From a virus (lineage: Duplodnaviria > Heunggongvirae > Uroviricota > Caudoviricetes), in the IMG/VR virus record IMGVR_UViG_2740892443_000002: a stretch of 22,057 nucleotides of DNA. One strand, written 5' to 3'. The position numbers were made by a program, and so were the translations under genes. Positions 1-21,352 of this stretch are shown here, one piece after another. Positions within the stretch are counted from its first letter, which is position 1, and each line of letters starts with the position of its first letter. The notes under the pieces were generated by a model. That model did no database searches and was not told where the DNA came from. It saw nothing but the letters and a program-made list of their open reading frames with translations.

Positions 1-1032
1 TCAAAAACTTGCTATTGATGTTGGTAGTGTTGCCAGCGGATTAAACCGTAATGCAGTTTCTAGGTGATCCGGTGCTAGATGTGCGTAACGCATAGTCATT
101 TTTATGTCGTGATGTCCGAGGATTTTTTGCAAAGCAAGGATATTTCCACCCGACATCATAAAATGCGCCGCAAACGTATGGCGCAGAACGTGTGTCAGTT
201 GACCGCGAGGGAGCACGATAGACGTTTTTTCCATCACGGATAAAAATTGAAAATAGCAGTCTGTGAAGAAATTGAACCCATCGAGCGCCATGATCTCTTC
301 GTAAAGCTCTTTACTGATAGGGATGCTTCTGTTTTTCTTCCCCTTCGTTCTGACAAAGGTAATTCGGTATTTGGTCACCTGTGAGCGGGTAAGGTTTATT
401 GCTTCTCGCCAGCGTGCGCCTGTGCTTAAGCATATCTTGACTACCAGTGCCAGAATTGGGTCCTGACGTTTGCAATCATCCAGCAGTTCAACAATCTGCT
501 CATGGGTAAGCCATGCCATCTCTTTTTCTGCGATGGTGAATTTTCGCATGTTCTCCAGTGGGTTTGGATACGACCATTCGCCCAGGCGGGATAGTTCGCT
601 AAAAACACTACTTAGATAGCTTTGCTCCAGGTTAATGGTGACCGGGCTGGCCCCTTTCTTCCATTTCTCGCTGAAGTAGATCTCACCTGTCAGTCGTTTA
701 TCTCGATAATGGGCAAACATTTTAGATGTGAGATCGGTTGCAAGGGGATTGCCCAGAGCGTCAACCATCAGCAGCAATTTGTCATAGACATGCTGCCCAG
801 CAGTCAGAGATTTACCATGTAGTTTGAACCATAGCTCAACCACGTCTTTCAGGGTTCGACGATCTACTGATTCGCCCAGCCAGGGCTTTGCTTCGGTTTC
901 TTCCATCGTATGACGCTCAAAAGCCAGTGCTTCGCCTTTGGTGGCGAATTGTTTACGCACACGACGCCCACTACGTCCGGCGGGGTAACATTCGCAAAGC
1001 CATTTTCCTGTGGTGAGTTTTCGTACTGCCAT
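1..1032 (-). CDS. int: Tyrosine integrase, P2/186 type (343 aa from ATG at 1030-1032; stop at 1-3)
   Basis: ORF translation starting MAVRKLTTGKW... parallels remembered P2 Int N-terminus (MAIKKLDDGRYEVD...RKF..K.EA.AFE) and has the C-terminal catalytic region (LRHTFAAHF...MRYAHL) typical of tyrosine recombinases. The ORF-track start upstream is probably a non-ATG artefact. Confidence 0.9.
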   Translation of the reverse strand: MAVRKLTTGKWLCECYPAGRSGRRVRKQFATKGEALAFERHTMEETEAKPWLGESVDRRTLKDVVELWFKLHGKSLTAGQHVYDKLLLMVDALGNPLATDLTSKMFAHYRDKRLTGEIYFSEKWKKGASPVTINLEQSYLSSVFSELSRLGEWSYPNPLENMRKFTIAEKEMAWLTHEQIVELLDDCKRQDPILALVVKICLSTGARWREAINLTRSQVTKYRITFVRTKGKKNRSIPISKELYEEIMALDGFNFFTDCYFQFLSVMEKTSIVLPRGQLTHVLRHTFAAHFMMSGGNILALQKILGHHDIKMTMRYAHLAPDHLETALRFNPLATLPTSIASF

Positions 1033-1218
1033 AAAAAATGCCCTCCAATAGAGAGCATTTTTACTGTATGTATAACCAGTGTCAATGTATGAAATCTTGC
1101 GACCATACATCTCACTGAAGCCATAATGAAGTTGGCTATTTTTTGCTATGTGAGTATGTGACTTTTGCGGTTAGCCTGCGGCTCATTGTTATATTAGGCG
1201 CAGATATAAAAGCAAAAA

Positions 1219-1410
1219 TTATCGCGAGTTTTTAGTACAGATTTTTTTTGATTTACTAATAGTTCCATCATTGCAAACGAACTTTCCATCGGAGGTACAG
1301 TGAGAGACACCTCCCTTTTTTCCAGAACAAGGATAATTTTTAGCATAGGTAGTTAGTGGGTTTAATAACAAAGAGCATGATAAAACCACAAAAAATACCT
1401 TACCAAGCAT
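1219..1410 (-). CDS. Small secreted cysteine-rich protein (63 aa; signal peptide plus ~40 aa mature peptide with 4 Cys), probable moron
   Basis: ATG at 1408-1410 preceded on the minus strand by GGGAGGA Shine-Dalgarno (plus 1414-1420). N-terminus [23 protein letters not shown] looks like a signal peptide; mature part has C-x8-C-x7-C-x11-C. Lies between cI and int on the same strand. AT-rich. Confidence 0.55.
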
Positions 1411-1425
1411 AGTTTCCTCCCGGTA

Positions 1426-1995
1426 TTACCTAACGTACTTAATTGTTAAACTTATAATTTTTCCAATTATTTCAACATCTTCTATCTTGCACTCGAAGGA
1501 TCTGTTTCCACCTTCAACGAAGATTCTTCCACCGGGTAAACGAGTAATGTCGCGGATTGTTATTTCGCCATCAATACTTATTACCCATTTACCATCACGT
1601 ATATCATCAAATTCTTTATCACAAATAAATTCAGAATTGTTATCTGTGATGACAAAAGGTTTTTTAAACGTAGAGGGTAGAAATCCCTTATCAAAAATAT
1701 AAAAACCGTCTTCACGCAAGGCACCATCAGATAATACATATTTAGCAACTTCCATCGTATTTGTATTACCTGAAGTTTGCTTTGAACCATGTCCAGTTGT
1801 GAGCCAATTAAGCGAGGTGCCCGTTTCAAGGGCGCACTGGATTACCCATTCTGCTGGGAATGAGTCACGCATGTAGCGTGTAGCGAGTGTACTTTTAGAG
1901 ATTCCTAAATGATCGCACAACGCCTGTCGAGTTTTGAATCCATAAGCTTCTACCATGCGCTCTATAGCGCCTCGTCCGCCTTTCTCCAAATTCAT
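1426..1995 (-). CDS. cI: 186-type CI immunity repressor (189 aa from ATG at 1993-1995; a GTG two codons upstream is an alternative start)
   Basis: Translation (…ERMVEAYGFKTRQALCDHLGISKSTLATRYMRDSFPAEWVIQCALETGTSLNWLTTGHG…) closely parallels the remembered phage 186 CI sequence (…DRICEAYGFSQKIQLANHFDIASSSLSNRYTRGAISYDFAAHCALETGANLQWLLTGEG…) and is the same length class (~190 aa). GGAG precedes the ATG on the minus strand. Confidence 0.85.
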   Translation of the reverse strand: MNLEKGGRGAIERMVEAYGFKTRQALCDHLGISKSTLATRYMRDSFPAEWVIQCALETGTSLNWLTTGHGSKQTSGNTNTMEVAKYVLSDGALREDGFYIFDKGFLPSTFKKPFVITDNNSEFICDKEFDDIRDGKWVISIDGEITIRDITRLPGGRIFVEGGNRSFECKIEDVEIIGKIISLTIKYVR

Positions 1996-2019
1996 GGTCA
2001 CTCCAAGTGAACTTTTATC

Positions 2020-3925: not shown

Positions 3926-4779
3926 GCACCATCCTGAAATGGGCGGGAAATAAAACCGCCATTATGTCCGAACTGAAAAAACACCTTCCTGCTGGCCCGC
4001 GACTGGTTGAACCTTTCGCGGGTTCCTGTGCTGTGATGATGGAGACGGATTACCCCAGCTATCTGGTTGCGGATATTAATCCTGATTTAATCAACCTCTA
4101 TAAAAAGGTTGCCGCTGATTGTGAATCGTTTATATCTCGCGCCAGAGTTTTATTTGAGATCGCAAACAGGGAGGTGGCTTATTACAACATAAGGCAGGAG
4201 TTTAATTACTCCACTGAAATTACTGATTTCATGAAAGCGGTATATTTCCTGTATCTCAATCGTCACGGTTACCGTGGTTTATGTCGCTATAACAAGAGCG
4301 GGCATTTCAACATTCCCTACGGTAATTATAAAAATCCGTATTTCCCTGAAAAAGAAATTCGCGCATTTGCAGAAAAGGCCCAGCGAGCAACGTTTATCTG
4401 CGCCAGCTTTGATGAAACGCTGGCGATGTTGAAGGCGGGGGATGTGGTGTATTGCGATCCGCCGTATGACGGTACGTTTTCCGGCTATCACACTGACGGC
4501 TTCACTGAAGATGACCAGTATCACCTGGCATCTGTTCTTGAACATCGGTCATCAGAAGGACATCCGGTCATTGTTTCTAACAGTGACACATCCCTGATCC
4601 GTTCGCTGTATCGCAATTTTACTCACCACTACATCAAGGCAAAACGCAGCATCGGTGTGGCAGCTGGCGAGGGTAAATCAGCAACAGAAATCATTGCTGT
4701 TTCCGGGCCGCGCTGCTGGGTGGGATTTGATTATTCGCGTGGCGTGGATAGTTCTGCCGTGTACGGAGTACGTGCATGA
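3922..4779 (+). CDS. dam: DNA N6-adenine methyltransferase, Dam family (285 aa from ATG at 3922)
   Basis: N-terminal LKWAGNK and FAGSCAV (AdoMet-binding motif I region) and catalytic DPPY ([10 protein letters not shown]) motifs read in the translation. ATGA overlap with both upstream and downstream genes. Confidence 0.85.
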
Positions 4780-7190
4780 GTCATGCCGATATGAACAACT
4801 GCTGCGGCTTTAACGAGGCTGCCGCAGCATTCTCATGGAACAGCCCGAAAAAGGCCATTAACCCTTATCTGGACCCGGCGGAAGTTGCGCCGGTTTCTAC
4901 GCTTTCAAACCTGATCACTCTGTACGCTGCCGATAACGAGCAGGAACAGTTGCGCCGCGAGACACTGAGTGATCAGGTCTGGGAGCGTTATTTCTTTAAT
5001 GAATCACGTGATCCTGTCCAGCGCGAAATGGAGCAGGATAAGCTCATTAGCCGGGCAAAGCTGGCGCATGAGCAGCAGCGTTTTAATTCAGACATGGTCA
5101 TTCTGGCGGACGTCAACGCCAAGCCTTCCCATATCAGCAAGCCGCTGATGCAACGTATTGAATACTTCAGCAGCCTGGGCAGGCCAAAGGCTTATTCCCG
5201 CTATTTACGTGAGACGATTAAGCCATGTCTGGAACGACTGGAGCATGTACGCGACAGTCAGCTATCTGCATCTTTTCGCTTTATGGCAAGCCATGAAGGG
5301 CTGGACGGCCTGCTGATCCTGCCTGAAATGAGTCAGGATCAGGTGAAACGCCTGTCCACCCTGGTAGCTGCGCATATGAGTATGTGCCTTGATGCAGCTT
5401 GTGGTGATTTGTATGCCACCGATGACGTTAAGCCAGAAGAAATCCGCAAGACATGGGAAAAGGTGGCAGCGGAAACCCTGCGTCTGGATGTCATCCCACC
5501 TGCGTTTGAGCAACTCCGTCGGAAAAGAAACCGCCGTAAACCCGTGCCCTATGAACTCATTCCGGGTTCGCTGGCGCGTATGTTGTGCGCCGACTGGTGG
5601 TATCGGAAATTATGGAAGATGCGTTGCGAATGGCGGGAAGAGCAGTTGCGCGCTGTTTGCCTGGTCAGCAAAAAAGCATCTCCTTATGTCAGCTATGAAG
5701 CCGTGATGCATAAACGTGAGCAGCGCCGTAAGTCGCTGGAGTTTTTCCGTTCTCATGAACTGGTGAACGAAGACGGCGACACGCTGGACATGGAGGATGT
5801 GGTAAACGCCAGCAGCAGCAACCCTGCGCATCGCCGCAATGAGATGATGGCCTGTGTTAAAGGTCTGGAGCTTATCGCGGAAATGCGCGGTGACTGCGCC
5901 GTTTTCTACACTATCACCTGTCCGTCGCGTTTCCATTCCACGCTAAATAACGGCAGACCAAACCCGACCTGGACAAACGCGACGGTAAGACAAAGCAGCG
6001 ATTATCTGGTCGGCATGTTTGCTGCATTTCGTAAGGCGATGCACAAAGCCGGGTTGCGCTGGTATGGCGTGCGGGTGGCTGAGCCGCATCATGATGGCAC
6101 AGTTCACTGGCACCTGTTGTGTTTCATGCGCAAAAAAGACCGCCGTGCCATCACTGCATTACTGCGTAAGTTTGCCATCCGTGAAGACCGCGAGGAGCTG
6201 GGCAATAACACTGGGCCGCGCTTTAAGTCTGAGTTGATTAACCCGCGCAAAGGAACGCCGACAAGCTACATCGCGAAATATATCAGTAAGAACATTGACG
6301 GTCGTGGTCTGGCTGGCGAGATCAGCAAGGAAACGGGTAAATCTCTGCGTGATAACGCTGAATACGTGAATGCCTGGGCGTCTCTGCATCGTGTTCAGCA
6401 ATTCCGCTTCTTTGGTATTCCGGGGCGTCAGGCTTACCGTGAACTTCGCTTGCTGGCTGGTCAGGCGGCAAGGCAACAGGGTGACAAAAAAGCAGGTGCG
6501 CCGGTACTGGATAACCCGCGTCTTGATGCCATTCTGGCTGCTGCTGATGCTGGTTGTTTTGCCACCTACATCATGAAGCAGGGCGGCGTACTGGTTCCCC
6601 GTAAATATCACCTCATCAGAACCGCTTATGAAATCAACGAAGAGCCGACCGCCTATGGCGATCACGGCATTCGTATTTATGGCATCTGGTCACCCATTGC
6701 AGAGGGCAAGATCTGCACTCATGCAGTGAAGTGGAAAATGGTTCGTAAAGCCGTTGACGTTCAGGAGGCGGCAGCCGACCAGGGCGCTTGCGCCCCTTGG
6801 ACTCGTGGCAATAACTGTCCCCTTGCTGAAAATTTGAACCAACAGGAGAAAGATAAATCAGCAGATGGGGATACCAGAACTGATATTACCTGCATGGATG
6901 ACAAGGAATTGCACGATTACCTGCACAATATGAGCAAAAAAGAGCGCCGGGAACTGGCAGCAAGATTACGCCTGGTTAAACCGAAACGGCGTAAAGACTA
7001 CAAACAGCGAATTACAGAGCATCAGCGTCAGCAGCTCGTCTATGAACTGAAGTCCAGAGGATTTGATGGCAGCGAGAAAGAGGTCGATTTGCTCCTTCGC
7101 GGTGGCAGTATTCCGTCAGGAGCAGGCCTGCGTATCTTCTATCGGAACCAGCGTTTGCAGGAAGATGATAAGTGGCGGAACCTGTATTAA
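4776..7190 (+). CDS. A: Rolling-circle replication initiator, P2 gpA family (804 aa)
   Basis: Large protein at the position of P2/186 gene A, with a paired-tyrosine motif YIAKYISK (nt 6265-6288; Y-x3-Y) as in P2 gpA / phiX174 gpA-type nicking endonucleases. Confidence 0.85.
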
Positions 7191-8158: not shown

Positions 8159-8770
8159 ATGGATTTAGTCTTTAAAATTCTGGCTTCGTTGGGTGGGGTG
8201 TCTTTTGTTGCATCTGGCATATTTGTTTGGATCGGGAAAGTTTATTTAGAAAGATATAAGTCGCGGCTAAACAAAGATATTGCTGAATTTCAATCACAAC
8301 TGAGTGCAACTAATGAAAGAATAAAGGCTAAGTTAGACAATTCTGTTTATGTAACGAAAGCGTATTTTGATAAGGAGTTATCAGCATATAGTCTCATTTG
8401 GAATTCGATGTTTGAAACCAGAGAAAGCGTGCTTAAGCTGAGGCCTGCGCTGGATCATTTTGACCCCAACGAACCATTTGAAGAGAGAAAATTTAGAAGG
8501 TTGAAAGTTTTTTTCGATGCATTTAATACTTTTGTTACAAGTGTTGAGTCTAACAAACCGTTCATCTCACCAGAGGTTTATATAATCTTGGACCGTTTCC
8601 GGAAGGAATGCTTTTCAGAGTCAATATCGTTTCAGCATGGCGATCCAGAATTTGACTGGCAAAATTATTGGAAAGAGGCAGAGTTGAATCGTACAACCAT
8701 CATCAAGCTTTTTGATGAGACGTGTGATGCAATTCGAGACAGGATGCACACATTAACTGTGGTTACGTAG
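8159..8770 (+). CDS. Membrane-anchored protein (203 aa): one N-terminal transmembrane helix, coiled-coil-like segment, C-terminal domain of unknown function; cargo gene, candidate defence function
   Basis: Hydrophobic stretch ILASLGGVSFVASGIFVWIG near the N-terminus; AT-rich codon usage unlike the flanking prophage genes; own -10 TATAAT at 8124-8129 and a downstream hairpin terminator at 8862-8889. Confidence 0.7.
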   Translation: MDLVFKILASLGGVSFVASGIFVWIGKVYLERYKSRLNKDIAEFQSQLSATNERIKAKLDNSVYVTKAYFDKELSAYSLIWNSMFETRESVLKLRPALDHFDPNEPFEERKFRRLKVFFDAFNTFVTSVESNKPFISPEVYIILDRFRKECFSESISFQHGDPEFDWQNYWKEAELNRTTIIKLFDETCDAIRDRMHTLTVVT

Positions 8771-9059: not shown

Positions 9060-9758
9060 ATGGTTATGTTAGTGGATGACTGTCCACGATGTGGATCACA
9101 AAAAATAGCGTTTGATGTTAATGGGCTGAATTGCACTAGGGTTTACAATGCATTGGGCGGGGGTAAAACATACGAGTACGAGGTCTATTGTGTTTGCCGA
9201 GAGTGTCATAAAACGACAATGTTTCTTTGCAGACCTTTAACGAAAAATAAAACTTTAGATGGCTATAATTGGGAAAGTGGAATATTCGGCTTAAAGGAAG
9301 TTGCAGAGGTTGTTAGGCCTATATCACCGGCAGACTTAGCAGTAGAGGAGCCACCAGAGTTCTTACCTGAGCATATCAATAGTGCATATGAGGAAGGGGC
9401 GAAATGTTTGGCTATAGGTTGTTATAATGCAGCAGCAACCATGTTTAGGCTTTGCCTTGATTATGCCACAAAAGGACTTCTTCCTGATGGGGAGCAAGGG
9501 CCTGCGCAAAAAATAAGGAGAAGCCTAGGGTTAAGAATGGAGTGGTTATTTGATAATCATCTACTGCCTGAAGCTTTAAGGGAACTAGCTGAATGCGTTA
9601 AAGATGACGGAAATGATGGAGCGCATGAAGGTATTTTGGATAAAGCTGCTGCTGAGGATCTTGAAGATTTTACCTATCTTTTTTTAGAACGGCTTTACAC
9701 TGAACCTCAACGCCTTATCGAAGCCAAGACAAGGCGTGAACAAAGAAGAAACAAATAA
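9060..9758 (+). CDS. Zinc-ribbon protein with DUF4145/HEPN-like C-terminal domain (232 aa); cargo gene between cos and portal, candidate defence/abortive-infection effector
   Basis: N-terminal CPRCG...CVCRECH (C4 ribbon); C-terminal helical region ending ...LRELAECVKDDGNDGAHEG... resembles the GN-x-AH core that I recall for DUF4145. GGGAGGAG precedes the ATG; candidate promoter -35 TTGAAT 8963-8968 with TG-extended -10 TAAATA 8986-8991. AT-rich. Stop is 8 bp from the convergent Q stop. Confidence 0.7.
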   Translation: MVMLVDDCPRCGSQKIAFDVNGLNCTRVYNALGGGKTYEYEVYCVCRECHKTTMFLCRPLTKNKTLDGYNWESGIFGLKEVAEVVRPISPADLAVEEPPEFLPEHINSAYEEGAKCLAIGCYNAAATMFRLCLDYATKGLLPDGEQGPAQKIRRSLGLRMEWLFDNHLLPEALRELAECVKDDGNDGAHEGILDKAAAEDLEDFTYLFLERLYTEPQRLIEAKTRREQRRNK

Positions 9759-9766
9759 GTTCGGAA

Positions 9767-10801
9767 TTATTCTTCTGAAAGAATATAGGGCGTAAATTTA
9801 ATCACTTCTTCGCCCAGCCAGTCGTTCAGCTCTTGTAGCCTTTTTTGCAAGGGCGTTAATTCATTACGTACAAATACGCGACTGGCCTTCTCCACATCCC
9901 CAAACCCCCCGACATTATTAGGCATTATCCCCATCATTTGTGGCGGCACACGATGCGCCGCCATCATGTCGTCCCGGCTCACGTTCTTGATATTCAGGAA
10001 CTCATCCTTCGCCGCCACTTCTGACAACGGGATAATCTGAAGCCCGTCCTTTTTACCGTTAGGCGAGTACATAAACAGGTTACGGAAGTTACCAGGACCT
10101 TTGGCGCTTTTCATCGCATTGCGGAGGTTGTTCACATCTTCCTGGTTCTGCGCTGCATCGGTCATGTACATGATGAAGCCTGCATGACTGCCGTTAATGT
10201 AATACTTGCGGCGGAACAGCGTGGCGGACTCGTTGAGCAGAGCTGACGGAATGGCAGAAAGATAACCAGGCAGGCCGTAGATCTCCTGGTTGATGTCCGG
10301 TTCCATCAGATGAAAAATGTTGCATTTCGTGAACTGATACGGCTGCGTAGTCATGCCGTATTGCACAAACCAGTAGGTATCAAGGTCTAACCCGCGTCGG
10401 GTGTATTTTGCCAGTGCAGGCTCAAGGGCGATAACTTCACCGAAGCGGTTCGTGCGTTTCTCCAGGTAGGCGTTACCAAAAACCAGATAGTCCTGTACAA
10501 AACGCGAAAAAGCCTGCTGGCTGAGCAGCGGGTGAGGGATGTAGGTGCTGGTCAGAATGTTGCACTTCACTGCAATCGGTGAGCTGTGATGCACGGCGGC
10601 GCGGAAGGTTCGCGCCAGTCCGTCGAAACTCACAGGCGGCTCGTACCAACGATCCATCTGTACGCATTCCACATAGTCCAGCAGTTCGCGGCGGTCCAGA
10701 ACAGGAACGGGATCACCGAAGCTGAATGCTTCGGCTGAAGTCTGGCTTTTATGCTGGATCTGTTTCGTCGACGCAGCGCGGTTCTTCTTACTCTTTCCCA
10801 T
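9767..10801 (-). CDS. Q: Portal protein, P2 gpQ family (344 aa from ATG at 10799-10801)
   Basis: Size identical to P2 Q (344 aa), position and orientation next to cos and the large terminase gene as in P2; start overlaps the P stop (TGATG). Confidence 0.85.
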   Translation of the reverse strand: MGKSKKNRAASTKQIQHKSQTSAEAFSFGDPVPVLDRRELLDYVECVQMDRWYEPPVSFDGLARTFRAAVHHSSPIAVKCNILTSTYIPHPLLSQQAFSRFVQDYLVFGNAYLEKRTNRFGEVIALEPALAKYTRRGLDLDTYWFVQYGMTTQPYQFTKCNIFHLMEPDINQEIYGLPGYLSAIPSALLNESATLFRRKYYINGSHAGFIMYMTDAAQNQEDVNNLRNAMKSAKGPGNFRNLFMYSPNGKKDGLQIIPLSEVAAKDEFLNIKNVSRDDMMAAHRVPPQMMGIMPNNVGGFGDVEKASRVFVRNELTPLQKRLQELNDWLGEEVIKFTPYILSEE

Positions 10802-12567
10802 CAAAAAATCTCCACAATATTGCTGGTATTGGCGGACTCGCCCTGCAGCGGTTCGTTAAACAGTGCGTGCATTGTTGCCCAGGCCAGATCGGCATGGCTG
10901 GCTTCTTCGCTGCGGCTGGCTTCATAGGTCGGGCGGTTGCCACTGGCAGTGGTAGCGCGACGGATTGCCATAAATGACTGCGCAATGTCGGTGTGCCCGG
11001 CGTCAAACTCCAGACGGCGGTGGCTGATAATGTCGTAGGCCTTGAGTACCAGGGCGTTTTTAACGTTGGGGTTATAGACAAACTCCCTGACGGCAGGAAA
11101 AAACGCTTTCACGTTCTCGTAAACCCCGTGACCGACGCCGGTCGAGTCGATACCGATATAGGTCACGTTATACTGTTCGGTCAGTTTTTTGATGGCGTCA
11201 GCCTGGGCGCGGAAGTCCATCCCGCGCCACTGGTGACGCTCAAGAATGCGGAACTTACCACCCGGCACGGCTGGCGGAGCCACCACCACGCATCCGGCAC
11301 TGTCGCCGTTCTGCGTACCTTTTGCCGGGTCATAACCGATCCACACTTCGCGCCAGCCAAACGGGCGCAGGGCCAGTGCATGAAAGTCGGTCCAGACTTC
11401 CCAGCTGTCCACCATGCACGCCTGCAGTTCGCTGAGCGGGAACACGGACGCGAGATCGTCCACGAACTCGCACATCAGCAGGTTCTGGTATTCGTCCGGG
11501 CTGTACTCCATGCGCAGCTGGTCGAGGTCGAACAGGTTACAGCCGCCGCGCACCGCATCTTCCACGGTGACTATCTGGCGGTATTGCCCGTCTGCGCACA
11601 GTAGGCCGGGGGCCAGATTGCTGTGGGACAGGTCGATGTCCACCTTGTCAGCTTTGTTGCGTCCACGGTTGAACAGCGCACCGGACCAGAACGGATAAGC
11701 ACTGTGGGTCAGGCTGGATGGCGTGGAAAAATAGGTTTGTCGCCATTTCTTGTGAATAGCCATACCGGAAGCCACTTTGCGCAACTCCTGGAATTTCGGT
11801 ATCCAGAAATATTCATCCAGATACAGGTTGCCGTGGTAACTCTGCGCCGTGCGGGCATTGGTGCCGAGGAAGTAAAGCGTGGCCCCGTTAGGAAGCACCA
11901 TCGGATCGCCTTTCAGCTCCACCTCGACTTCTTTGGCGAAGTCGATGATGTACTGCTTAAAGACGTGAGCCTGTGCCTTACTGGCAGAAAGGAAAATCTG
12001 GTTACGTCCGGTAAGCAGGGCGTCAATCAGGGCTTCACGGGCAAAGTAAAAGGTCGCGCCGATCTGGCGTGACTTCAGCAGGTTGCGGATGCGGTTGGTT
12101 TTTCCGGCTTCCCACCAGTGGCGCTGGTAGTTGAACATGGAGGAATGGAAGATTTCTTCCAGTTTCTCTATCTGTTCATCGGTGAAAACATTCTTTTCCG
12201 GCTGACGGCGCGGGCCTTTGTTGCGGTTGGCGACGTTAGGGTTTAAGTCGGCTTCGTTACCGCCATTGTTAAACTTGCCGATCCGCGCGTGGCGCTCCGA
12301 CTGGCGCGCCAGCAGGTCAATTTCTTTGAAATCTTTCCCTTCTTTGTGCTCCTTCATAATGAGCTGGCAGTAACGTGCGGCGGTGGTGAGCTGCATCTGA
12401 TCCAGCGGCCCATAGTCACCCCACTTGTCGCGTTTCTTCCAGCTGTGAACGGTTGCAACTTTCTCGCCCAGCATTTCAGCAATGCGGGCTACGCGGTATC
12501 CCTGAAAGTACAGCAGCATGGCCTGCCGACGGGGATCGAGATCTGCGGGTGTCAGTGTGGTGTTCAT
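10801..12567 (-). CDS. P: Terminase large (ATPase) subunit, P2 gpP family (588 aa)
   Basis: Size (P2 P is ~590 aa) and position, co-oriented with Q and divergent from O, as in the P2 packaging module. Confidence 0.85.
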   Translation of the reverse strand: MNTTLTPADLDPRRQAMLLYFQGYRVARIAEMLGEKVATVHSWKKRDKWGDYGPLDQMQLTTAARYCQLIMKEHKEGKDFKEIDLLARQSERHARIGKFNNGGNEADLNPNVANRNKGPRRQPEKNVFTDEQIEKLEEIFHSSMFNYQRHWWEAGKTNRIRNLLKSRQIGATFYFAREALIDALLTGRNQIFLSASKAQAHVFKQYIIDFAKEVEVELKGDPMVLPNGATLYFLGTNARTAQSYHGNLYLDEYFWIPKFQELRKVASGMAIHKKWRQTYFSTPSSLTHSAYPFWSGALFNRGRNKADKVDIDLSHSNLAPGLLCADGQYRQIVTVEDAVRGGCNLFDLDQLRMEYSPDEYQNLLMCEFVDDLASVFPLSELQACMVDSWEVWTDFHALALRPFGWREVWIGYDPAKGTQNGDSAGCVVVAPPAVPGGKFRILERHQWRGMDFRAQADAIKKLTEQYNVTYIGIDSTGVGHGVYENVKAFFPAVREFVYNPNVKNALVLKAYDIISHRRLEFDAGHTDIAQSFMAIRRATTASGNRPTYEASRSEEASHADLAWATMHALFNEPLQGESANTSNIVEIF

Positions 12568-15272: not shown

Positions 15273-15367
15273 CAGAACGTGCCCCCGCGCACGGGCGGCA
15301 CGGGGTGGCGAAAGGCACTGCCACATCAACACCCCGTCCACCGCCCTCTATTTCAGGAGAAAGCAGC

Positions 15368-16867
15368 ATGAAGTTTGTTGCGCCAGAACAGGCACCGGAA
15401 CAGGCGGAAATCATCAGAAACACGCCGTTCTGGCCTGATGTGGACCTGTCGGAGTTTCGCAGTGTCATGCGCACTGACGGCACGGTGACGCAGCCGCGTT
15501 TAAAGCAGGTTGCGCTGGCTGCAGTGCTGGGGCCGCTGGCAGTGATCCGTCTGGGATTCTCTGTGCTGGGTATCAAAACGTTATCTTCCGTTACGGCAGC
15601 AGTAACTCGAACCAGCAGCGCGTTGTCCTGGCTGGCTGGCGCACCACTGGCACTGCTGCGACGCGGGCTTGCTTCATCGGGCAACGCCGCAGGTTTACTT
15701 ACTGCGCCGTTGTCGTCTTTGCGCCGCACGGCATCACTGACGGGAAATGTCCTGAAAACTGTAGCAGGTGCGCCGGTTGCACTTTTGCGGTCTGGATTAT
15801 CCGGTTTACGTGCTGTTGCTGTGATGTTTATGAATCCTCTGGCGGTACTGCGCGGTGGACTGGCCGCCGCAGGCACGGTGCTGCGAGTACTGGCATCTGG
15901 TCCACTGGCGATGCTGCGCGTTGCCCTGTATGCCATATCTGGTCTGTTAGGTGCTCTGCTCAGTCCGATAGGTCTTGTGGTTACTGCACTGGCGGGCGTG
16001 GCGCTGGTTGTCTGGAAATACTGGCAACCCATCACCGCATTTCTCGGTGGCGTGGTGGAAGGATTCAAAGCGGCGGCAGGTCCCATCAGTGCAGCGTTCG
16101 AACCGCTTAAGCCCGTGTTCCAGTGGATTGGCGACAAAGTGCAGGCGCTGTGGGGCTGGTTTACTGATCTGCTGACGCCCGTTAAGTCGACCTCTGCCGA
16201 ACTGCAGAGCGCAGCGGCAATGGGGCGGCGATTCGGGGAGGCACTGGCGGAAGGGCTGAATATGGTCATGCATCCGCTGGACTCCCTGAAATCCGGCGTT
16301 TCCTGGTTGCTGGAGAAGCTCGGCATTGTCAGTAAAGAGGCCGCAAAGGCAAAACTGCCGGAAAGCGTGACGCGTCAGCAACCTGCGACGGTGAATGCAG
16401 ACGGTAAAGTGATGATGCCATCGGGTGGTTTTCCATCATGGGGATATGGCTTTGCGGGGATGTATGACAGCGGCGGGTATATCCCGCGCGGGCAGTTTGG
16501 CATCGTCGGTGAAAACGGGCCGGAAATTGTTAACGGCCCGGCAAATGTGACCAGCCGGAGAAATACAGCTGCACTGGCTGCCGTTGTTGCCGGAATGATG
16601 GGCGTTGCTGCCGCGCCAGCAGAGCTTCCACCGTTGCACCCTTTGGCACTTCCCGCGAAAGGTGGAGAAGCAATTGTGAGTCGCGCAGCCACTGTGCCGC
16701 TCGTTCAACGGATTGAGGCACCGACGCAGATCATCATTCAGACGCAGCCAGGACAAAGTGCGCAGGATATTGCGCGGGAGGTGGCACGCCAGCTTGATGA
16801 ACGTGAACGCAGGCTGAAGGCAAAAGCCAGGAGTAACTACAGCGATCAGGGGGGATACGACGCATGA
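15368..16867 (+). pseudogene. In-frame deletion remnant: 5' end of a head-completion (gpL-position) gene fused to the C-terminal part of a tail tape-measure (gpT-like) gene; 499 aa ORF
   Basis: ATG at 15368 with AGGAG at 15355-15359. N-terminal ~45 aa (MKFVAPEQAPEQAEIIRNTPFWPDVDLSEF...) is unlike what follows, which is Ala/Leu/Gly-rich repetitive sequence with a C-terminal ...GYIPRGQFGIVGENGPEIV... segment typical of tape-measure proteins. The ORF sits between M and U, where P2 has about 20 genes (L through T). Confidence 0.6.
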
Positions 16868-17349
16868 TGATGGTGCTGGGATTGTACGTGTTTATGCTGC
16901 GCACCGTTCCGTATCAGGAACTGCAGTATCAACGCAGCTGGCGACATGCGGCAAACAGTCGGGTAAACCGACGTCCGTCCACGCAGTTTCTGGGACCGGA
17001 AAACGACATGCTGACGCTTTCCGGTGTTCTTATGCCGGAAATAACAGGCGGCAGGCTGTCGTTGCTGGCACTGGAGCAGATGGCAGAACAGGGGAAAGCA
17101 TGGCCCCTGATTGAAGGCAGCGGCACGATTTACGGCATGTATGTGATTGAGGGACTGAATCAGACTAAAACGGAGTTTTTCCGCGACGGTATGCCGCGCC
17201 GGATTGAGTTCACCCTGTCGCTCAAACGAGTGGATGAATCCCTGTCCGATATGTTCGGTGATCTCAGTGCGCAACTGAATAATCTGCAGGACACGGCAAC
17301 GTCTGCCTTAAGCGATATCAGTAAAACGGTGGGAGGGCTGCTGTCGTGA
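16864..17349 (+). CDS. U: Tail protein, P2 gpU family (161 aa)
   Basis: Translation MMMVLGLYVFMLRTVPYQELQ...FLGPENDMLTLSGVLMPEITGG... resembles remembered P2 gpU (MMLALGMFVF...TLPYQ...FLG...ITLAGVLYPELTGG); ATGA overlap with upstream ORF. Confidence 0.8.
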   Translation: MMMVLGLYVFMLRTVPYQELQYQRSWRHAANSRVNRRPSTQFLGPENDMLTLSGVLMPEITGGRLSLLALEQMAEQGKAWPLIEGSGTIYGMYVIEGLNQTKTEFFRDGMPRRIEFTLSLKRVDESLSDMFGDLSAQLNNLQDTATSALSDISKTVGGLLS

Positions 17350-18446
17350 ATTTCAGCTCTGAACTGCTTAACAAAGGCAACAAAACTCCCGCATTCAGCA
17401 TCAGTATTGAGGGCAGGGATATCACCACTGTGCTGGATAACCGCCTGATGAGTTTGACGCTGACGGATAACCGGGGCTTTGAAGCGGACCAGCTTGATCT
17501 GGAGCTGGATGACGCTGACGGAAAAATCGTGCTGCCGCGCCGTGGTGCGGTTATTACGCTGGCGCTGGGCTGGAAGGGGCAGCCGCTTTTCCCGAAAGGG
17601 GCATTCACAGTGGACGAGATTGAACACACTGGCGCACCGGACCGCCTGACTATCCGGGCGCGAAGTGCTGATTTTCGGGAAACGCTGAATACCCGCCGTG
17701 AAAAATCGTGGCATAAGACTACCGTCGGGGAAGTGGTGAAGGAAATAGCCGCGCGGCACAAGCTGAAGATGGCACTGGGTAAAGACCTGTCGGATAAGCC
17801 CGTGGAGCATATAGACCAGACTAATGAGAGTGACGGCAGTTTTCTGATGCGGCTGGCGCGACAGTACGGTGCCATCGCGTCGGTGAAAAATGGCAATCTG
17901 TTATTCATCCGGCAGGGGCAGGGCAAAAGCGCCACTGGTAAACCTCTGCCAGTGATCACTCTCACACGCAAGGACGGCGACAGTCACCGATTTACCCTGG
18001 CAGATCGCGGAGCCTACACGGGCGTAATTGCCAGCTGGTTGCATACCCGCGAACCTGCGAAGAAAGAAAGCACCACGGTGAAGCGTAAGCGCAGAACTAA
18101 GAAGCAGAAGAAAGAGCCAGAAGCGAAGCAGGGCGATTACCTGGTGGGTACGGATGAAAACGTGCTGGTACTTAATCGCACTTATGCCAACCGGAGCAAC
18201 GCTGAACGGGCAGCGAAAATGCAGTGGGAACGCCTGCAACGCGGCGTTGCGTCATTCTCGCTACAACTGGCGGAAGGGCGGGCAGATCTCTACACAGAAA
18301 TGCCTGTGAAGGTCAGTGGCTTTAAACAGCCGATAGATGATGCGGAATGGACCATTACGACTCTGACGCATACCGTCAGCCCGGATAACGGTTTTACGAC
18401 CAGTCTGGAGCTTGAAGTGAGGATTGATGATTTCGAAATGGAATGA
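17346..18446 (+). CDS. D: Tail protein D / late control gene D, P2 gpD family (366 aa, GTG start)
   Basis: Position between U and ogr and size class (P2 D ~387 aa); GTG start overlapping the U stop (GTGA). Confidence 0.8.
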   Translation: MNFSSELLNKGNKTPAFSISIEGRDITTVLDNRLMSLTLTDNRGFEADQLDLELDDADGKIVLPRRGAVITLALGWKGQPLFPKGAFTVDEIEHTGAPDRLTIRARSADFRETLNTRREKSWHKTTVGEVVKEIAARHKLKMALGKDLSDKPVEHIDQTNESDGSFLMRLARQYGAIASVKNGNLLFIRQGQGKSATGKPLPVITLTRKDGDSHRFTLADRGAYTGVIASWLHTREPAKKESTTVKRKRRTKKQKKEPEAKQGDYLVGTDENVLVLNRTYANRSNAERAAKMQWERLQRGVASFSLQLAEGRADLYTEMPVKVSGFKQPIDDAEWTITTLTHTVSPDNGFTTSLELEVRIDDFEME

Positions 18447-18990: not shown

Positions 18991-20676
18991 TTATCCTAAT
19001 CCTGGCCATACCATGACGATGATTGTCCCTGCCAGCGTCAGCAGGACGTTGGCGATTGCATAGGTGCCCGCATAGCCCAGCGCCGGGATGTTACTGCGAG
19101 CTGTATCACTGATGATCTCCATTGCCGGCGCGCAGGTACGTGCGCCCATCATTGCGCCGAACAACAGTGCGCGGTTCATTCGCAATACATAAGCACCGAA
19201 CAAGAAACAGATAACCACGGGCACCAGACTGACAATCAATCCGGCAATCAACATCTGACCGCCAATCGCGCCCAGGCCGTTATTAATACCGCTACCGGCG
19301 CTCAGACCAACGCCTGCCATAAACACCATCAAGCCGAACTCTTTCACCATGCTTAATGCACCTTGCGGAATGTAACCGAAGGTCGGGTGGTTAGCACGCA
19401 TAAAGCCCAGCATAATTCCGGCGAATAACAACCCGGCAGCGTTCCCCATGCCGAAACTGAATGTGCTGAACTGGAAGGTGATCATCCCGATCATCAGCCC
19501 AATAACAAAGAAGGCGCAAAATGCCAGCAGGTCAGTGACCTGGCTGTGAATCGAGATAAAGCCGATGCGATCGGCGATGGTTTTTACGCGACGGGCATCA
19601 CCGCTGACTTGTAAAACGTCACCTTTGTTAAGCACGACGTTGTCATCTATCGGCATCTCAATCTGGCTACGAATGACGCGGTTAAGGAAGCAACCGTGAT
19701 CGGTCAACTTCAGTTGTGCGAGACGTTTACCTACAGCGTTATGGTTTTTAACGACCACTTCTTCAGTGACGATACGCATGTCGAGAAGGTCACGATCGAA
19801 AACTTCTTTACCGTTACGGAAGCTGGGATCGAGTCGGGCATGGGCGTCGGGATAGCCTACCAACGCTATTTCATCGCCCATTTGTAGCACGGCATCACCG
19901 TCTGGATTTGCCAGAATCCCGTTACGTCGAATACGTTCAATGTAGCAGCCGGTTTGTCGATAAATACCCAGTTCACGCAGATTTTTGCCGTCGGTCCAGG
20001 CCACCAGCTCCGGGCCGACGCGATAGGCGCGGATCACCGGTAAATAAACCTTACGGTTGGCATCAGTGTCCAGGCCACGTTCGCGGGCGATTTGCTGGGC
20101 GCTGGTCTGTAAGTCCTGATGCTGCAATTTCGGCAAGTAACGCGCACCAACAATCAAACTCACCAGACCGATTAAATAGGTTAAGGCATACCCGAGGCTC
20201 AGATTATCCAGTGCCAGTGAGAGCTGCCTGCTTTCCATGCCGGAATGACGCAGTGTATCGCCAGCACCGACCAGAACCGGTGTCGACGTCATAGAGCCTG
20301 CTAACATACCGGCCGTCAGGCCAATATCCCAGCCAAACAGCTTACCTAACCCTAAGGCGATCACCAGCGCACTGCCAACCATCACCAGTGCTAACATTAG
20401 GTAATTTTTCCCATCGCGAAAAAAAATGGAAAAAAAGTTCGGTCCGGCTTCGACCCCGACGCAGAAAATAAACAGCATAAAGCCAAGATTAAGCGCATCG
20501 GTGTTAATGCTGAAATGTTGTTGGCCTAATAACAGCGATACGACTAAAACGCCAATGGAATTACCCAGTTGGATCGAACCAAGTCGTAACTTTCCGAGAC
20601 ATAGCCCAAGCGCGAGGACCACAAATAATAACAGAATGTAATTCCCATTTAACAATTCGGCGACGTTTATATTCAC
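18991..20676 (-). CDS. ybjL: Putative transporter YbjL (AspT/YidE/YbjL family, 561 aa)
   Basis: Translation [29 protein letters not shown]... and length 561 aa match what I recall of E. coli YbjL; multi-TM protein with central soluble domains. Confidence 0.9.
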
Positions 20677-20945
20677 GGAGGCTAACTTCTTGTTTACTAG
20701 TAAGCTGTTGAAAGAAATGGTAATTTACGATAATGTTTTTTACCAGAATTCAGGGCGCAGATTCATTCAGCGCACCTAAACGATAGTAAAGTAACAATAT
20801 ATTTTACTAGTGTAATCACATTAGGTATCAACGGCTATATGAATTGCGTTGGCCTATATTAGCATGGAATGCGAAGCGGCTTTATCTTACTGAACGCCAC
20901 ACTGGCGAAAAATGTGTTCGATAGACGCAGTGTCAGGAGGAACGA

Positions 20946-21323
20946 GTGAAACATAAACAACGTTGGGCGGGGGCAATCTGCTGTTTTGTCCTCTTCATTG
21001 TGGTGTGCCTTTTTCTGGCGACGCACATGAAAGGCGCTTTTCGGGCTGCCGGGCATCCTGAAATCGGCTTGCTATTTTTCATTCTTCCTGGAGCAGTGGC
21101 CAGCTTCTTTTCACAGCGTAGAGAAGTCCTGAAACCTCTGTTTGGCGCAATGCTGGCGGCACCCTGTTCGATGCTCATTATGCGGCTGTTTTTTTCACCG
21201 ACGCGCTCATTCTGGCAAGAGCTGGCATGGTTACTAAGCGCGGTGTTCTGGTGTGCGCTGGGGGCACTGTGTTTCTTATTTATCAGTAGTTTGTTTAAAC
21301 CACAGCACAGAAAAAATCAGTAA
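20946..21323 (+). CDS. ybjM: Inner-membrane protein YbjM (125 aa, GTG start)
   Basis: Conserved E. coli gene order ybjL-ybjM-grxA-ybjC-nfsA; 125 aa hydrophobic protein; AGGAGG at 20935-20940 before GTG 20946. Confidence 0.8.
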   Translation: MKHKQRWAGAICCFVLFIVVCLFLATHMKGAFRAAGHPEIGLLFFILPGAVASFFSQRREVLKPLFGAMLAAPCSMLIMRLFFSPTRSFWQELAWLLSAVFWCALGALCFLFISSLFKPQHRKNQ

Positions 21324-21343
21324 AGCCCTCAACGCGAGGGCTT
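21323..21343. terminator. Hairpin between convergent ybjM and grxA (AAGCCCTC-AACGC-GAGGGCTT), possible bidirectional terminator
   Basis: 8-bp stem read directly; T-run on the minus strand is a few nt from the stem (plus 21311-21316 AAAAAA), none on the plus strand, so weak. Confidence 0.35.
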
Positions 21344-21352
21344 GTCAGACGA

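What the first reader, a model, noticed from the sequence alone, without database searches (positions are those of the whole stretch)
1111..1425. Secreted cysteine-rich mini-protein encoded inside the lysogenic cI-int transcript
A 63-aa ORF with an excellent Shine-Dalgarno, a signal-peptide-like N-terminus and a ~40-aa mature peptide with four cysteines sits between cI and int, co-oriented with both. In 186/P2 these genes are adjacent, so this is an insertion (moron) that would be expressed in the lysogen from the repressor-maintenance promoter. Candidate functions include lysogenic conversion or superinfection exclusion at the envelope.
Basis: partly seen in the sequence, partly recalled or inferred. 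Interest (0 to 1): 0.55.

Follow-up and report, generated by a model that had tools for sequence, protein, structure and literature searches.

The report
Prophage YdcA-family exported mini-protein beside cI
The small ORF is a real, strongly conserved gene for a tiny, positively charged, disulfide-rich exported protein of the uncharacterised YdcA family; it sits directly after the prophage repressor gene in a known cargo and defence hotspot, and its function is still unproven.

Summary
Window 1219-1410 (-) encodes a 63-aa protein. It has a GGGAGG Shine-Dalgarno and starts 15 nt after the cI stop. It has a Sec-type signal peptide and a 40-aa mature peptide with four Cys (+7, pI 9.6).

It is not an orphan. 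It passes the NCBIfam YdcA model (116 bits, cutoff 93), and RefSeq labels it 'YdcA family protein' or 'hypothetical protein'. E. coli also carries a chromosomal paralogue, ydcA.

The mature core is under strong purifying selection (9 synonymous, 0 non-synonymous changes against a sister copy). The signal peptide varies freely.

Phages 186 and P2 have nothing between repressor and int. Sister prophages carry PD-Lambda-1, or ydcA plus a PDC-S20 KAP NTPase, at this published hotspot. Divergent 186/HP2-like prophages keep ydcA immediately after cI; in HP2 it is unannotated and overlaps the cI stop (TAATG).

New leads:
- The domain is fused or adjacent to several unrelated secreted nuclease families.
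- It is homologous to the two lobes of Legionella Dot/Icm protein Dis2, which the literature calls Legionella-specific.

Best guess: a periplasmic polyanion- or DNA-binding knot made in lysogens that acts on incoming DNA. This function is inferred and untested. The family is known; interest is moderate.

The parts
1219..1410 (-). ydcA-family gene (63 aa plus stop). The precursor of a small exported Cys-rich protein.
   Evidence: ORF list. NCBIfam NF007463 at 116.1 bits, above the cutoff of 93. phrog_6000 at E 4.6e-34. RefSeq product 'YdcA family protein'. Homologues carry the precomputed Pfam hit PF27300 (YdcA).
1342..1410 (-). Codons 1-23, the predicted Sec (signal peptidase I) signal peptide [23 protein letters not shown].
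   Evidence: Basic n-region, 12-residue hydrophobic core, and T-Y-A at -3 to -1. Ala at -1 is at least 90% conserved. This part evolves fast (pN 0.4-0.65) but stays hydrophobic. The cleavage site is inferred; no dedicated signal-peptide predictor was available.
1222..1341 (-). Codons 24-63, the mature 40-aa peptide. Four Cys, net charge +7, pI 9.6, 4.26 kDa. This is the YdcA domain core [32 protein letters not shown].
   Evidence: Nearly invariant from Enterobacterales to Moraxella and Herbaspirillum. 0 non-synonymous against 9 synonymous changes versus L016. Charge and pI. AF2 pLDDT is 85-89 over residues 31-50, with a small beta-hairpin.
1416..1421 (-). Shine-Dalgarno GGGAGG, 5 nt upstream of the ATG.
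   Evidence: Read from the sequence. The same element is present in the sister locus L016.
1426..2001 (-). 186-type CI repressor gene. Its stop codon lies 15 nt before the ydcA start.
   Evidence: Pfam Phage_CI_repr at 2.8e-33 and Phage_CI_C at 1.1e-28. RefSeq product 'phage repressor protein CI'.
1033..1218 (-). 186-nt spacer between ydcA and int. It has no canonical minus-strand terminator directly after ydcA. The int-proximal ~60 nt belong to the conserved int module.
   Evidence: Promoter and terminator scan. Megablast matches to int modules of other phages extend to 1090-1092. The spacer RNA folds better than shuffles, z = -3.78. No Rfam match.
1034..1062 (-). 13-bp hairpin (AAAAAUGCUCUCU-AUU-GGAGGGCAUUUUU) running into a U tract just before the int ATG. 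Its 3' arm contains the int SD (GGAGG). It is a candidate attenuator, terminator or translational block between ydcA and int.
   Evidence: RNA fold. The functional reading is inference only.
1057..1085 (-). Sigma-70-like promoter match TTGACA-17-AAAAAT upstream of int.
   Evidence: Consensus scan, 10 of 12 positions. The number of matches in the region is no greater than in shuffles, so this is weak evidence.
1..1032 (-). P2/186-type tyrosine integrase gene, at the end of the lysogenic gene string.
   Evidence: Pfam Int_N at 2.8e-32 and Phage_integrase at 4.3e-22. 94-95% nucleotide identity to int of Klebsiella phage 4LV2017 and Escherichia phage vB_EcoM-813R9.
2121..2884 (+). Divergent early lytic genes apl/cox-like (2121-2342) and cII (2375-2884). 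They define the 186-type switch, from which the leftward cI transcript is inferred to start.
   Evidence: phrog_575 Cox-like at 6.1e-31 and Pfam Phage_CP76 at 3.2e-42. Architecture as annotated for phage 186.

Best explanation
This is a prophage-borne copy of the YdcA family of small exported proteins.

**Shown.** It is a genuine gene under strong purifying selection. It sits 15 nt downstream of the 186-type cI repressor gene, with its own strong ribosome-binding site, in the variable cI-int cargo slot.

**Inferred with good support.**
- It is transcribed with cI from the lysogenic promoters, so it is made continuously in lysogens.
- The precursor is exported by Sec and cleaved after Ala23.
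- The 40-residue mature peptide is oxidised into a compact, two-disulfide, strongly cationic knot that stays in the periplasm, probably near the outer membrane.

**Inferred, weaker.** The knot is a binding module for a polyanionic ligand, most likely DNA. The same domain is repeatedly fused or adjacent to unrelated secreted nucleases and also occurs as tandem repeats. In a lysogen it would then act on nucleic acid crossing the periplasm (superinfecting phage genomes, possibly conjugative or transforming DNA), either by obstructing it or by handing it to a periplasmic nuclease. That would be an envelope-level exclusion function that complements cI immunity.

**Confidence by layer.**
- Real YdcA-family gene: 0.95.
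- Exported disulfide-bonded periplasmic peptide: 0.85.
- Co-expressed with cI in lysogens: 0.75.
- Polyanion or DNA binding: 0.4.
- Exclusion of incoming DNA as the selected role: 0.25-0.3.
For: **Identity.**
- NF007463 scores 116 bits, above the cutoff of 93.
- RefSeq labels it 'YdcA family protein'.
- Homologues carry PF27300.
- The family comprises 473 clusters at 50% identity.

**Selection.**
- Mature core: 9 synonymous and 0 non-synonymous changes versus L016.
- Synonymous sites are saturated (pS 0.86) while pN is 0.03 versus L008.
- The signal peptide has pN 0.4-0.65.

**Export.**
- Signal-peptide features are conserved family-wide, including Ala at -1.
- The homologous Dis2 lobes are disulfide-pinned and lie next to the outer membrane in a 2.8 A cryo-EM structure (PMC8486379).

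**Co-expression with cI.**
- The gap is 15 nt with a GGGAGG SD.
- No minus-strand terminator or credible own promoter lies in between.
- In HP2 the start overlaps the cI stop as TAATG.
- The cI-ydcA order is kept beside cI proteins only 32-38% identical, in Yersinia, Buttiauxella, Haemophilus and Pasteurellaceae.

**Hotspot context.**
- 186 and P2 have nothing at this position.
- vB_EcoM-813R9 carries PD-Lambda-1 there (E 7.9e-120).
- E. coli L008 carries ydcA followed by a PDC-S20 KAP NTPase (E 1.3e-171).
- In HP2, ydcA is followed by a protein matching a superinfection-exclusion (Sie-like) family at E 8.6e-9.
- The hotspot is published (PMC9122126; bioRxiv 10.64898/2026.02.27.708500).

**DNA or polyanion link.**
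- Among the top 150 family representatives there are fusions to Endonuclease_NS (3), SNase (1) and PLDc_2 (1).
- SNase is adjacent in L064 and L069, nearby in L077, and fused in L078.
- A GIY-YIG nuclease lies next to a YdcA-domain protein on a Citrobacter plasmid.
- Proteins with 2 or 3 tandem domain copies exist.
- The domain's net charge has a median of +4 across the family and is +7 here.
Against: - No experiment or published work shows DNA binding, exclusion or any other activity for any family member.
- PADLOC has no match.
- The nuclease-fused copies are the least basic (+1 to +3). In those proteins the domain could equally be an envelope-anchoring or protein-docking module.
- Its one structurally characterised relative, Dis2, binds proteins of a secretion machine (DotK, DotC, DotD), not DNA, and its deletion has only subtle effects (PMC12716638).
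- E. coli already has a chromosomal ydcA linked to organic-acid tolerance (PMC7642389). That points to envelope physiology rather than phage defence.
- In Moraxella phages the gene lies among structural genes, not beside cI.
- Transcription with cI is inferred from anatomy only. The hairpin before int shows that transcript processing here is not simple.
Confidence: 0.4

Rival explanations
1. **Envelope or acid-stress lysogenic conversion.** The prophage supplies an extra, constitutively expressed copy of a host periplasmic factor (YdcA) that improves envelope robustness, for example under organic-acid or low-pH stress. It would have no direct effect on phages.
For: - Chromosomal ydcA is a 57-aa paralogue with the same core.
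- Deleting ydcA in E. coli W makes cells sensitive to 300 mM 3-hydroxypropionate. The same paper cites YdcI control and induction at pH 5 (PMC7642389).
- A sigma-S SELEX peak lies in the rydC/ydcA intergenic region (PMC5493296).
- A cationic peptide near the outer membrane could bind lipid or LPS head groups.
Against: - The phenotype comes from a single study, has no mechanism, and was overridden by yieP deletion.
- It does not explain the recurrent nuclease fusions and neighbours.
- It does not explain why the gene travels on phages and plasmids of many genera, in a slot otherwise filled by anti-phage genes.
Confidence: 0.2
2. **Protein-docking accessory (Dis2-like).** The knot binds an outer-membrane-associated protein machine, such as a secretin, a conjugative T4SS, an Omp-type receptor or a lipoprotein. 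It would modulate or block that machine, for example by masking a phage receptor or limiting conjugation.
For: [quoted passage not shown]
- One family member is fused to a T6SS VasL domain, and another lies inside a T6SS cluster.
Against: - The window encodes no secretion system.
- The near-invariance of the core from Enterobacterales to Moraxella and Herbaspirillum is hard to reconcile with docking to fast-evolving, lineage-specific partners.
- Dis2 itself is much less basic and has extra cysteines.
Confidence: 0.15
3. **Operon passenger.** The ORF is kept mainly because its translation or its RNA supports expression or stability of the cI-int message. The peptide itself would be dispensable.
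For: - Tight coupling to cI: a 15-nt gap here and a TAATG overlap in HP2.
- Structured RNA lies downstream.
Against: - Purifying selection acts on the amino-acid sequence of the mature domain, not on the RNA. Synonymous sites are saturated while the protein is almost unchanged.
- The same domain is conserved in unrelated contexts.
Confidence: 0.05
4. **Released antimicrobial peptide.** The peptide is a released cationic, defensin-like or bacteriocin-like molecule that acts on competitor cells.
For: The mature peptide is 4.3 kDa, carries a charge of +7 and has two predicted disulfides. These features are shared with many antimicrobial peptides.
Against: - It has a Sec signal peptide only. No export, lysis or immunity partner is encoded nearby.
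- A chromosomal copy exists in essentially all E. coli.
- Fusion to periplasmic or secreted nucleases indicates an accessory module rather than a toxin.
Confidence: 0.03

Closest known systems
E. coli K-12 YdcA (b1419) and the YdcA family (Pfam PF27300; NCBIfam NF007463 / PRK10040)
   Same: The architecture matches: a signal peptide followed by a domain of about 32 residues with C-x9-C-x7-C-x11-C spacing and the motifs KGG and F-x-C-x-D-G-x-x-S-x-S-K. The window protein passes the curated HMM cutoff. The core is about 78% identical to chromosomal YdcA (counted by eye).
   Different: This copy is encoded on a 186-like prophage directly behind cI rather than next to cybB/rydC. Its signal peptide differs and it is more basic (+7). 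No function has been established for the family.
Legionella pneumophila Dis2 (Lpg0823), a Dot/Icm T4SS outer-membrane-cap component (PDB 7MUC, 7MUD)
   Same: Both lobes of Dis2 match the YdcA profile. Evidence:
- hmmsearch E 3.8e-5
- the top two Foldseek PDB hits, at 38-44% identity
- hhalign E 2.3e-4
- a Dis2-like protein carries PF27300

Dis2 is periplasmic, disulfide-pinned and located near the outer membrane (PMC8486379).
   Different: Dis2 has two lobes with ten cysteines, is far less basic, and is built into a secretion machine. Here there is a single free-standing domain and no T4SS. The literature describes Dis2 as Legionella-specific with no structural neighbours (PMC8486379, PMC12716638).
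Vibrio phage K139 glo, and the cI-int defence hotspot of K139/P2-related prophages
   Same: A small periplasmic protein gene of a P2-related temperate phage. PMC4870250 describes it as a periplasmic protein and as the K139-family immunity gene. Rousset et al. describe the cI-int interval of K139-like phages as a defence hotspot (PMC9122126). That glo lies between cI and int and takes part in exclusion (Nesper et al. 1999) rests on my own recollection and was not checked here.
   Different: No sequence similarity was detected: tblastn of the ORF against 50,697 phage records returned no Vibrio phage. The analogy rests on position and cell compartment only.
Accessory binding domains of secreted nucleases (for example the HhH modules of ComEA-like proteins, OB folds, and Excalibur in Bacillus nucleases)
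   Same: A small N-terminal module placed after the signal peptide of SNase, Endonuclease_NS and PLD-type nucleases, which also occurs free-standing and in tandem copies.
Classical prophage morons and P2 accessory genes (old, tin, fun(Z))
   Same: A non-essential accessory gene that is absent from close relatives at the same position, lies in a lysogen-expressed region, and has low G+C (33% against 45-52% in int and the early genes).
   Different: It has no promoter or terminator of its own and relies on the cI transcript. The low G+C extends into the 3' half of cI, so cI and ydcA look like a single module. No exclusion phenotype is known.

Membership tests
YdcA family (PF27300 / NF007463) | Score above the curated HMM cutoff | tested here: met
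   NF007463.0 scores 116.1 bits against a cutoff of 93, covering model positions 1-58 of 58. Close homologues carry a precomputed PF27300 hit. The local Pfam copy lacks PF27300, so that model could not be run directly.
YdcA family (PF27300 / NF007463) | N-terminal Sec signal peptide followed by one short Cys-rich domain (C-x9-C-x7-C-x11-C, KGG, F-x-C-x-DG-x-x-S-x-S-K) | tested here: met
   All invariant and nearly invariant columns of the 32- and 150-sequence alignments are present in the window protein.
Anti-phage defence / superinfection exclusion gene | Located in a recognised prophage defence hotspot | tested here: met
   In sister prophages the cI-int interval holds PD-Lambda-1 (E 7.9e-120) or ydcA plus PDC-S20 (E 1.3e-171). 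In HP2 it holds a Sie-like ORF. The hotspot is described in PMC9122126 and bioRxiv 10.64898/2026.02.27.708500.
Anti-phage defence / superinfection exclusion gene | Similarity to a known defence or exclusion protein | tested here: not met
   No PADLOC family at E <= 1e-3. The PHROG match is to phrog_6000, function unknown.
Anti-phage defence / superinfection exclusion gene | Reduces infection by, or DNA entry of, other phages | not testable with these tools
   This needs plating-efficiency, adsorption and DNA-entry assays.
Moron (strict sense) | Absent from otherwise related phages at the same position | tested here: met
   186 (cI and int overlap), P2, and 4LV2017 and vB_EcoM-813R9 (same int, different cargo).
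Moron (strict sense) | Autonomous transcription unit with its own promoter and terminator | tested here: not met
   No promoter-like site lies between the cI stop and the ATG (only 15 nt). No minus-strand terminator follows the ORF. This rests on consensus scans only.
Dis2-type T4SS outer-membrane-cap component | Domain homology to the Dis2 lobes | tested here: met
   [not shown]
Dis2-type T4SS outer-membrane-cap component | Two-lobed protein associated with a Dot/Icm-type secretion system | tested here: not met
   There is a single domain, and the window is a 186-like prophage with no T4SS genes.
Secreted-nuclease accessory / DNA-binding module | Recurrent fusion or operonic linkage with nucleases | tested here: met
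   Fusions to SNase, Endonuclease_NS and PLDc_2. SNase neighbours or fusion in 4 of 80 species-level loci. A GIY-YIG nuclease neighbour. No nuclease is encoded next to the gene in this window.
Secreted-nuclease accessory / DNA-binding module | Binds nucleic acid | not testable with these tools
   Only the positive charge is available as evidence (median +4 in the family, +7 here). This needs EMSA or anisotropy with the oxidised peptide.
Bacterial lipoprotein | Lipobox with Cys at about positions 15-35, conserved in homologues | tested here: not met
   VLSC12 lies too close to the N-terminus, and the Cys is absent from homologous signal peptides.

The most novel reading that the evidence does not exclude
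The YdcA domain is a previously unrecognised periplasmic nucleic-acid-binding mini-domain of about 32 residues with two disulfides. Prophage and plasmid copies expressed with the repressor would then be a new, very small class of envelope-level exclusion factor that traps incoming phage, conjugative or transforming DNA, or hands it to periplasmic nucleases. The 'Legionella-specific' T4SS component Dis2 would be a duplicated member of the same family. That would give both the E. coli y-gene ydcA and Dis2 a testable function.
Probability: 0.2. Interest if true: 0.7.

Novelty: new member of a known kind. Interest (0 to 1): 0.45.

Why it matters
- **Prevalence.** The cI-ydcA stretch is present in 728 of 5,426 complete E. 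coli genomes. The family spans Alpha-, Beta- and Gammaproteobacteria on chromosomes, phages and plasmids. Despite this, no member has a known function.
- **A concrete hypothesis.** Three observations turn an anonymous y-gene into something testable: the gene sits directly behind the repressor in a defence hotspot, its domain is repeatedly joined to secreted nucleases, and it is homologous to a structurally solved but functionally opaque T4SS protein (Dis2).
- **If the hypothesis holds.** It would add a minimal 4-kDa periplasmic player to prophage-mediated exclusion. It would also explain an orphan component of the Dot/Icm machine.
- **If it fails.** The gene remains a well-conserved accessory periplasmic peptide of unknown role.

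Tried and rejected
- **Local Pfam-A.** Only a sub-threshold GULLO2-like hit, because PF27300 is newer than the local copy.
- **Foldseek afdb50.** The library was not available.
- **Foldseek PDB.** Nothing significant by E-value, although the top two hits are Dis2.
- **Rfam on 900-2200.** No match.
- **Scan of IMG/VR with the YdcA alignment.** 493 relatives were found, but the 80 loci returned are all 98-100% identical copies of this same prophage type, so no new contexts emerged.
- **Literature on 'ydcA'.** Several hits are unrelated namesakes and were discarded: the B. subtilis rhomboid YdcA, the F-like plasmid leading-region ydcA (putative methylase on pS88), and, by inference and unchecked, the gonococcal genetic island ydcA.
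- **'Conjugal transfer protein'.** UniRef gives this name to the cluster. No conjugation genes lie nearby, so I treated it as an annotation artefact.
- **Lipoprotein reading (VLSC12).** Rejected, because the Cys is too close to the N-terminus and is not conserved.
- **Chance ORF.** Rejected on the selection evidence.
- **Metal-binding knuckle (4 Cys + His37).** Judged unlikely. The protein is exported and the homologous Dis2 lobes show disulfide density (PMC8486379). His37 is not among the nearly invariant columns of the wider alignment.
- **Disulfide pairing.** It could not be determined because model coordinates are not exposed.
- **Second AF2 run with the deeper alignment.** Not possible, because representatives may not be submitted.
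Full report
**1. What is in the sequence**

The window begins with the left end of a 186-type prophage. On the minus strand lie int (1-1032), a 63-codon ORF (1219-1410) and cI (1426-2001). On the plus strand the divergent apl/cox-like gene (2121-2342) and cII (2375-2884) follow.

The ORF has a GGGAGG Shine-Dalgarno at 1416-1421, 5 nt before its ATG. It starts 15 nt after the cI stop codon.

The protein is [23 protein letters not shown]|[40 protein letters not shown]. It has a basic n-region, a 12-residue hydrophobic core and T-Y-A at -3 to -1. The 40-residue mature part has four cysteines, a net charge of +7, a pI of 9.6 and a mass of 4.26 kDa. No dedicated signal-peptide predictor was available, so the cleavage site is inferred from these features and from family conservation.

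**2. It is a real gene**

- It scores 116.1 bits against NCBIfam NF007463 (PRK10040.1-2), whose cutoff is 93, and E 4.6e-34 against phrog_6000.
- RefSeq annotates the identical locus as 'YdcA family protein' or 'hypothetical protein'. The cI-ORF stretch occurs in 728 of 5,426 complete E. coli genomes.
- Homologues carry the precomputed Pfam hit PF27300, named YdcA. That model is newer than the local Pfam copy, which explains the empty Pfam result.
- A profile search of 1.84 billion representatives finds 473 clusters at E <= 1e-3.

In a 32-sequence alignment the signal peptides are unalignable. The mature core [32 protein letters not shown] is nearly invariant from Enterobacterales to Moraxella and Herbaspirillum.

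Nei-Gojobori counts confirm protein-level selection:

| Comparison | Mature core | Signal peptide |
|---|---|---|
| Window vs L016 (Escherichia sp.) | 9 synonymous, 0 non-synonymous changes in 32 codons | 2 synonymous, 1 non-synonymous change |
| Window vs L008 | pS 0.86 (saturated), pN 0.03 | pN 0.42 |
| Other homologues compared | pN 0.05-0.17 | pN 0.38-0.65 |

Family-wide, 97% of members have a hydrophobic N-terminus, with a median of 27 residues before the first domain cysteine.

**3. It is accessory, but not a random insertion**

In phage 186, cI and int overlap by one base. In P2, C and int are 115 nt apart. Neither has a gene in between.

Two phages share a 94-95% identical int but carry different cargo between cI and int:
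- Klebsiella phage 4LV2017 has a 350-aa unknown protein.
- Escherichia phage vB_EcoM-813R9 has a 557-aa protein that matches PD-Lambda-1 at E 7.9e-120.

Other 186-like prophages keep ydcA directly behind cI and add a further gene before int:
- E. coli: cI-ydcA-KAP NTPase-int, where the NTPase matches PADLOC PDC-S20 at E 1.3e-171.
- Hafnia: cI-ydcA-347 aa-int.
- Haemophilus phage HP2 and S2: cI-ydcA-orf1(S)-int.
  - The ydcA gene is unannotated (60 aa; HP2 record 2486-2668).
  - Its ATG overlaps the cI stop as TAATG.
  - orf1(S) matches a Sie-like PHROG at E 8.6e-9.

Among 80 species-level genome loci that encode a family member, 11 lie in 186-like prophages. In 9 of these the gene lies downstream of cI, directly in all but Buttiauxella. 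In seven of the nine the cI is only 32-38% identical to the one here: Yersinia x3, Buttiauxella, Haemophilus x2 and a Pasteurellaceae genome. The other two are close relatives of this prophage.

The cI-int interval is a published defence hotspot. It was described for K139-like phages (PMC9122126) and as a minor hotspot of P2-like prophages (bioRxiv 10.64898/2026.02.27.708500). Neither paper mentions YdcA.

G+C is 33% over the ORF. The low value extends into the 3' half of cI (32-37%), against 44-52% in int and the early genes. cI and ydcA therefore look like one module.

**4. Expression (inferred)**

- No promoter-like site fits in the 15-nt gap, and no minus-strand terminator follows the ORF.
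- By analogy with the annotated 186 switch, the gene should be transcribed with cI from pL, and from the CII-activated pE during establishment. It should be translated from its own SD.
- The 186-nt spacer before int folds unusually well (z = -3.78). It ends in a 13-bp hairpin at 1034-1062 that runs into a U tract and buries the int SD.
- A TTGACA-17-AAAAAT match lies at 1085-1057.
- One possible reading is that cI-ydcA read-through is attenuated or translationally silent for int, while int has a start of its own. This is speculation and was not tested.

**5. What the protein is like**

A profile search of PDB sequences, however, hits chain AN of 7MUC/7MUD at E 3.8e-5, with both lobes aligned. 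This chain is Legionella Dis2 (Lpg0823). Three further results agree:
- Foldseek ranks the same chain first and second among 350,542 chains, at 38-44% identity, although E is only 0.46-0.64.
- A Dis2-like protein retrieved by sequence carries PF27300.
- hhalign gives E 2.3e-4.

**6. Functional leads**

Domain fusions and neighbours:
- Among the top 150 family representatives, the domain follows a signal peptide and precedes Endonuclease_NS in three proteins.
- The same arrangement occurs with SNase in one protein and with PLDc_2 in one protein.
- The nuclease partners thus come from three unrelated superfamilies.
- Smaller numbers of fusions involve DUF4124, PBCV_basic_adap, VasL and TerY_C.
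- Proteins with two or three tandem copies of the domain exist.
- In the genome loci, an SNase gene lies immediately downstream (L064) or upstream (L069) of a free-standing ydcA, lies nearby in L077, and is fused in L078.
- On a Citrobacter plasmid, a 133-aa YdcA-domain protein lies between tssE and a GIY-YIG nuclease gene.

The domain is basic throughout the family (median +4, range -1 to +7).

These observations suggest an accessory binding module for a polyanion, most simply DNA. The nuclease-fused copies are the least basic, and Dis2 binds proteins. An envelope-anchoring or docking role therefore cannot be excluded.

The only phenotype in the literature concerns the chromosomal paralogue. 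Its deletion in E. coli W causes sensitivity to 3-hydroxypropionate, and that paper cites YdcI control and acid induction (PMC7642389).

**7. Mobility of the family**

Homologues with about 75% identity in the mature part occur in Moraxella phages (within the structural gene region), in Acinetobacter, Haemophilus and Pseudomonas phages, and on Acinetobacter and Rhizobium plasmids.

Outside prophages, neighbours are heterogeneous. The enterobacterial chromosomal copy lies beside cytochrome b561 (cybB).

**8. Verdict**

It belongs to a known, uncharacterised family, it is not an autonomous moron, and no exclusion function has been shown.

My preferred mechanism is a periplasmic cationic disulfide knot that binds DNA or another polyanion and interferes with incoming nucleic acid. 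I hold it at roughly 0.25-0.4, depending on the layer. The rivals are envelope-stress conversion (0.2) and Dis2-like protein docking (0.15).

I classify it as a new member of a known kind, of moderate interest (0.45). The interest comes mainly from the prevalence of the gene, the nuclease association and the Dis2 link.

Noticed in passing
[not shown]
   Followed up: partly
PDB 7MUC/7MUD chain AN (Legionella Dis2, Lpg0823); P0229, P0230: Both lobes of Dis2 are YdcA-type domains: profile E 3.8e-5, top Foldseek hit, hhalign E 2.3e-4, and PF27300 on a Dis2-like protein. The literature describes Dis2 as Legionella-specific with no structural relatives.
   Followed up: yes
window 1034-1085 (-): A 13-bp hairpin plus U tract lies directly before the int ATG and sequesters the int Shine-Dalgarno. 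It is preceded by a TTGACA-17-AAAAAT promoter-like match. The whole spacer RNA folds with z = -3.78. This may be attenuation or translational control of int. The element belongs to the int module shared with Klebsiella phage 4LV2017.
   Followed up: partly
window 15305-16867 (+): A 520-aa ORF fuses the N-terminus of head-completion protein gpL (residues ~21-107) to the C-terminal half of a tail tape-measure protein (residues ~94-520). gpU-like (16864-17349) and gpD-like (17346-18446) genes follow. The prophage in this window therefore seems to have lost its lysis, sheath, baseplate and fibre genes and is probably defective. The top E. coli genome hits do not show the exact junction as a single aligned piece.
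   Followed up: partly
window 18991-21625: Host genes follow the prophage: an Asp-Al_Ex/TrkA_C permease (ybjL-like, 18991-20676, minus strand), YbjM (20946-21323) and a glutaredoxin (21353-21625, minus strand). In a sister genome rcdA lies on the int side, so the element sits between rcdA and ybjL.
   Followed up: partly
window 8159-8770 (+) and 9060-9758 (+): Two cargo-like ORFs lie between the replication gene (4776-7190) and the portal gene (9767-10804), which is the main published P2 defence hotspot. One matches phrog_26391 (function unknown). The other contains DUF4145 and matches phrog_1305 'DNA binding protein', with a weak PADLOC hit to PD-T7-4 (E 1.2e-6).
   Followed up: partly
L005 3595-5268 (-); L008 4198-5526 (+): Sister prophages with the same int carry recognised or candidate defence genes in the cI-int interval: PD-Lambda-1 in Escherichia phage vB_EcoM-813R9 (deposited as 'chromosome segregation ATPase') and a PDC-S20 KAP NTPase 11 nt downstream of ydcA in E. 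coli.
   Followed up: yes
L064 5941-6902; L069 4963-6162; L078 4569-5321; L176 3426-5227: Free-standing ydcA genes lie next to secreted staphylococcal-nuclease homologues. A Methylococcales genome has a YdcA-SNase fusion. On a Citrobacter plasmid a 133-aa YdcA-domain protein lies between tssE and a GIY-YIG nuclease gene in a T6SS cluster.
   Followed up: partly
P0056, P0057, P0060-P0062 (Herbaspirillum and relatives): Family members of about 100-105 aa carry a C-terminal extension with CxC...C[TA]GPRGG[KQ]YC. This resembles a second, degenerate copy of the CSGKKGG motif. Pfam matches PBCV_basic_adap in two members of the 150-sequence set, whose identity was not listed.
   Followed up: no
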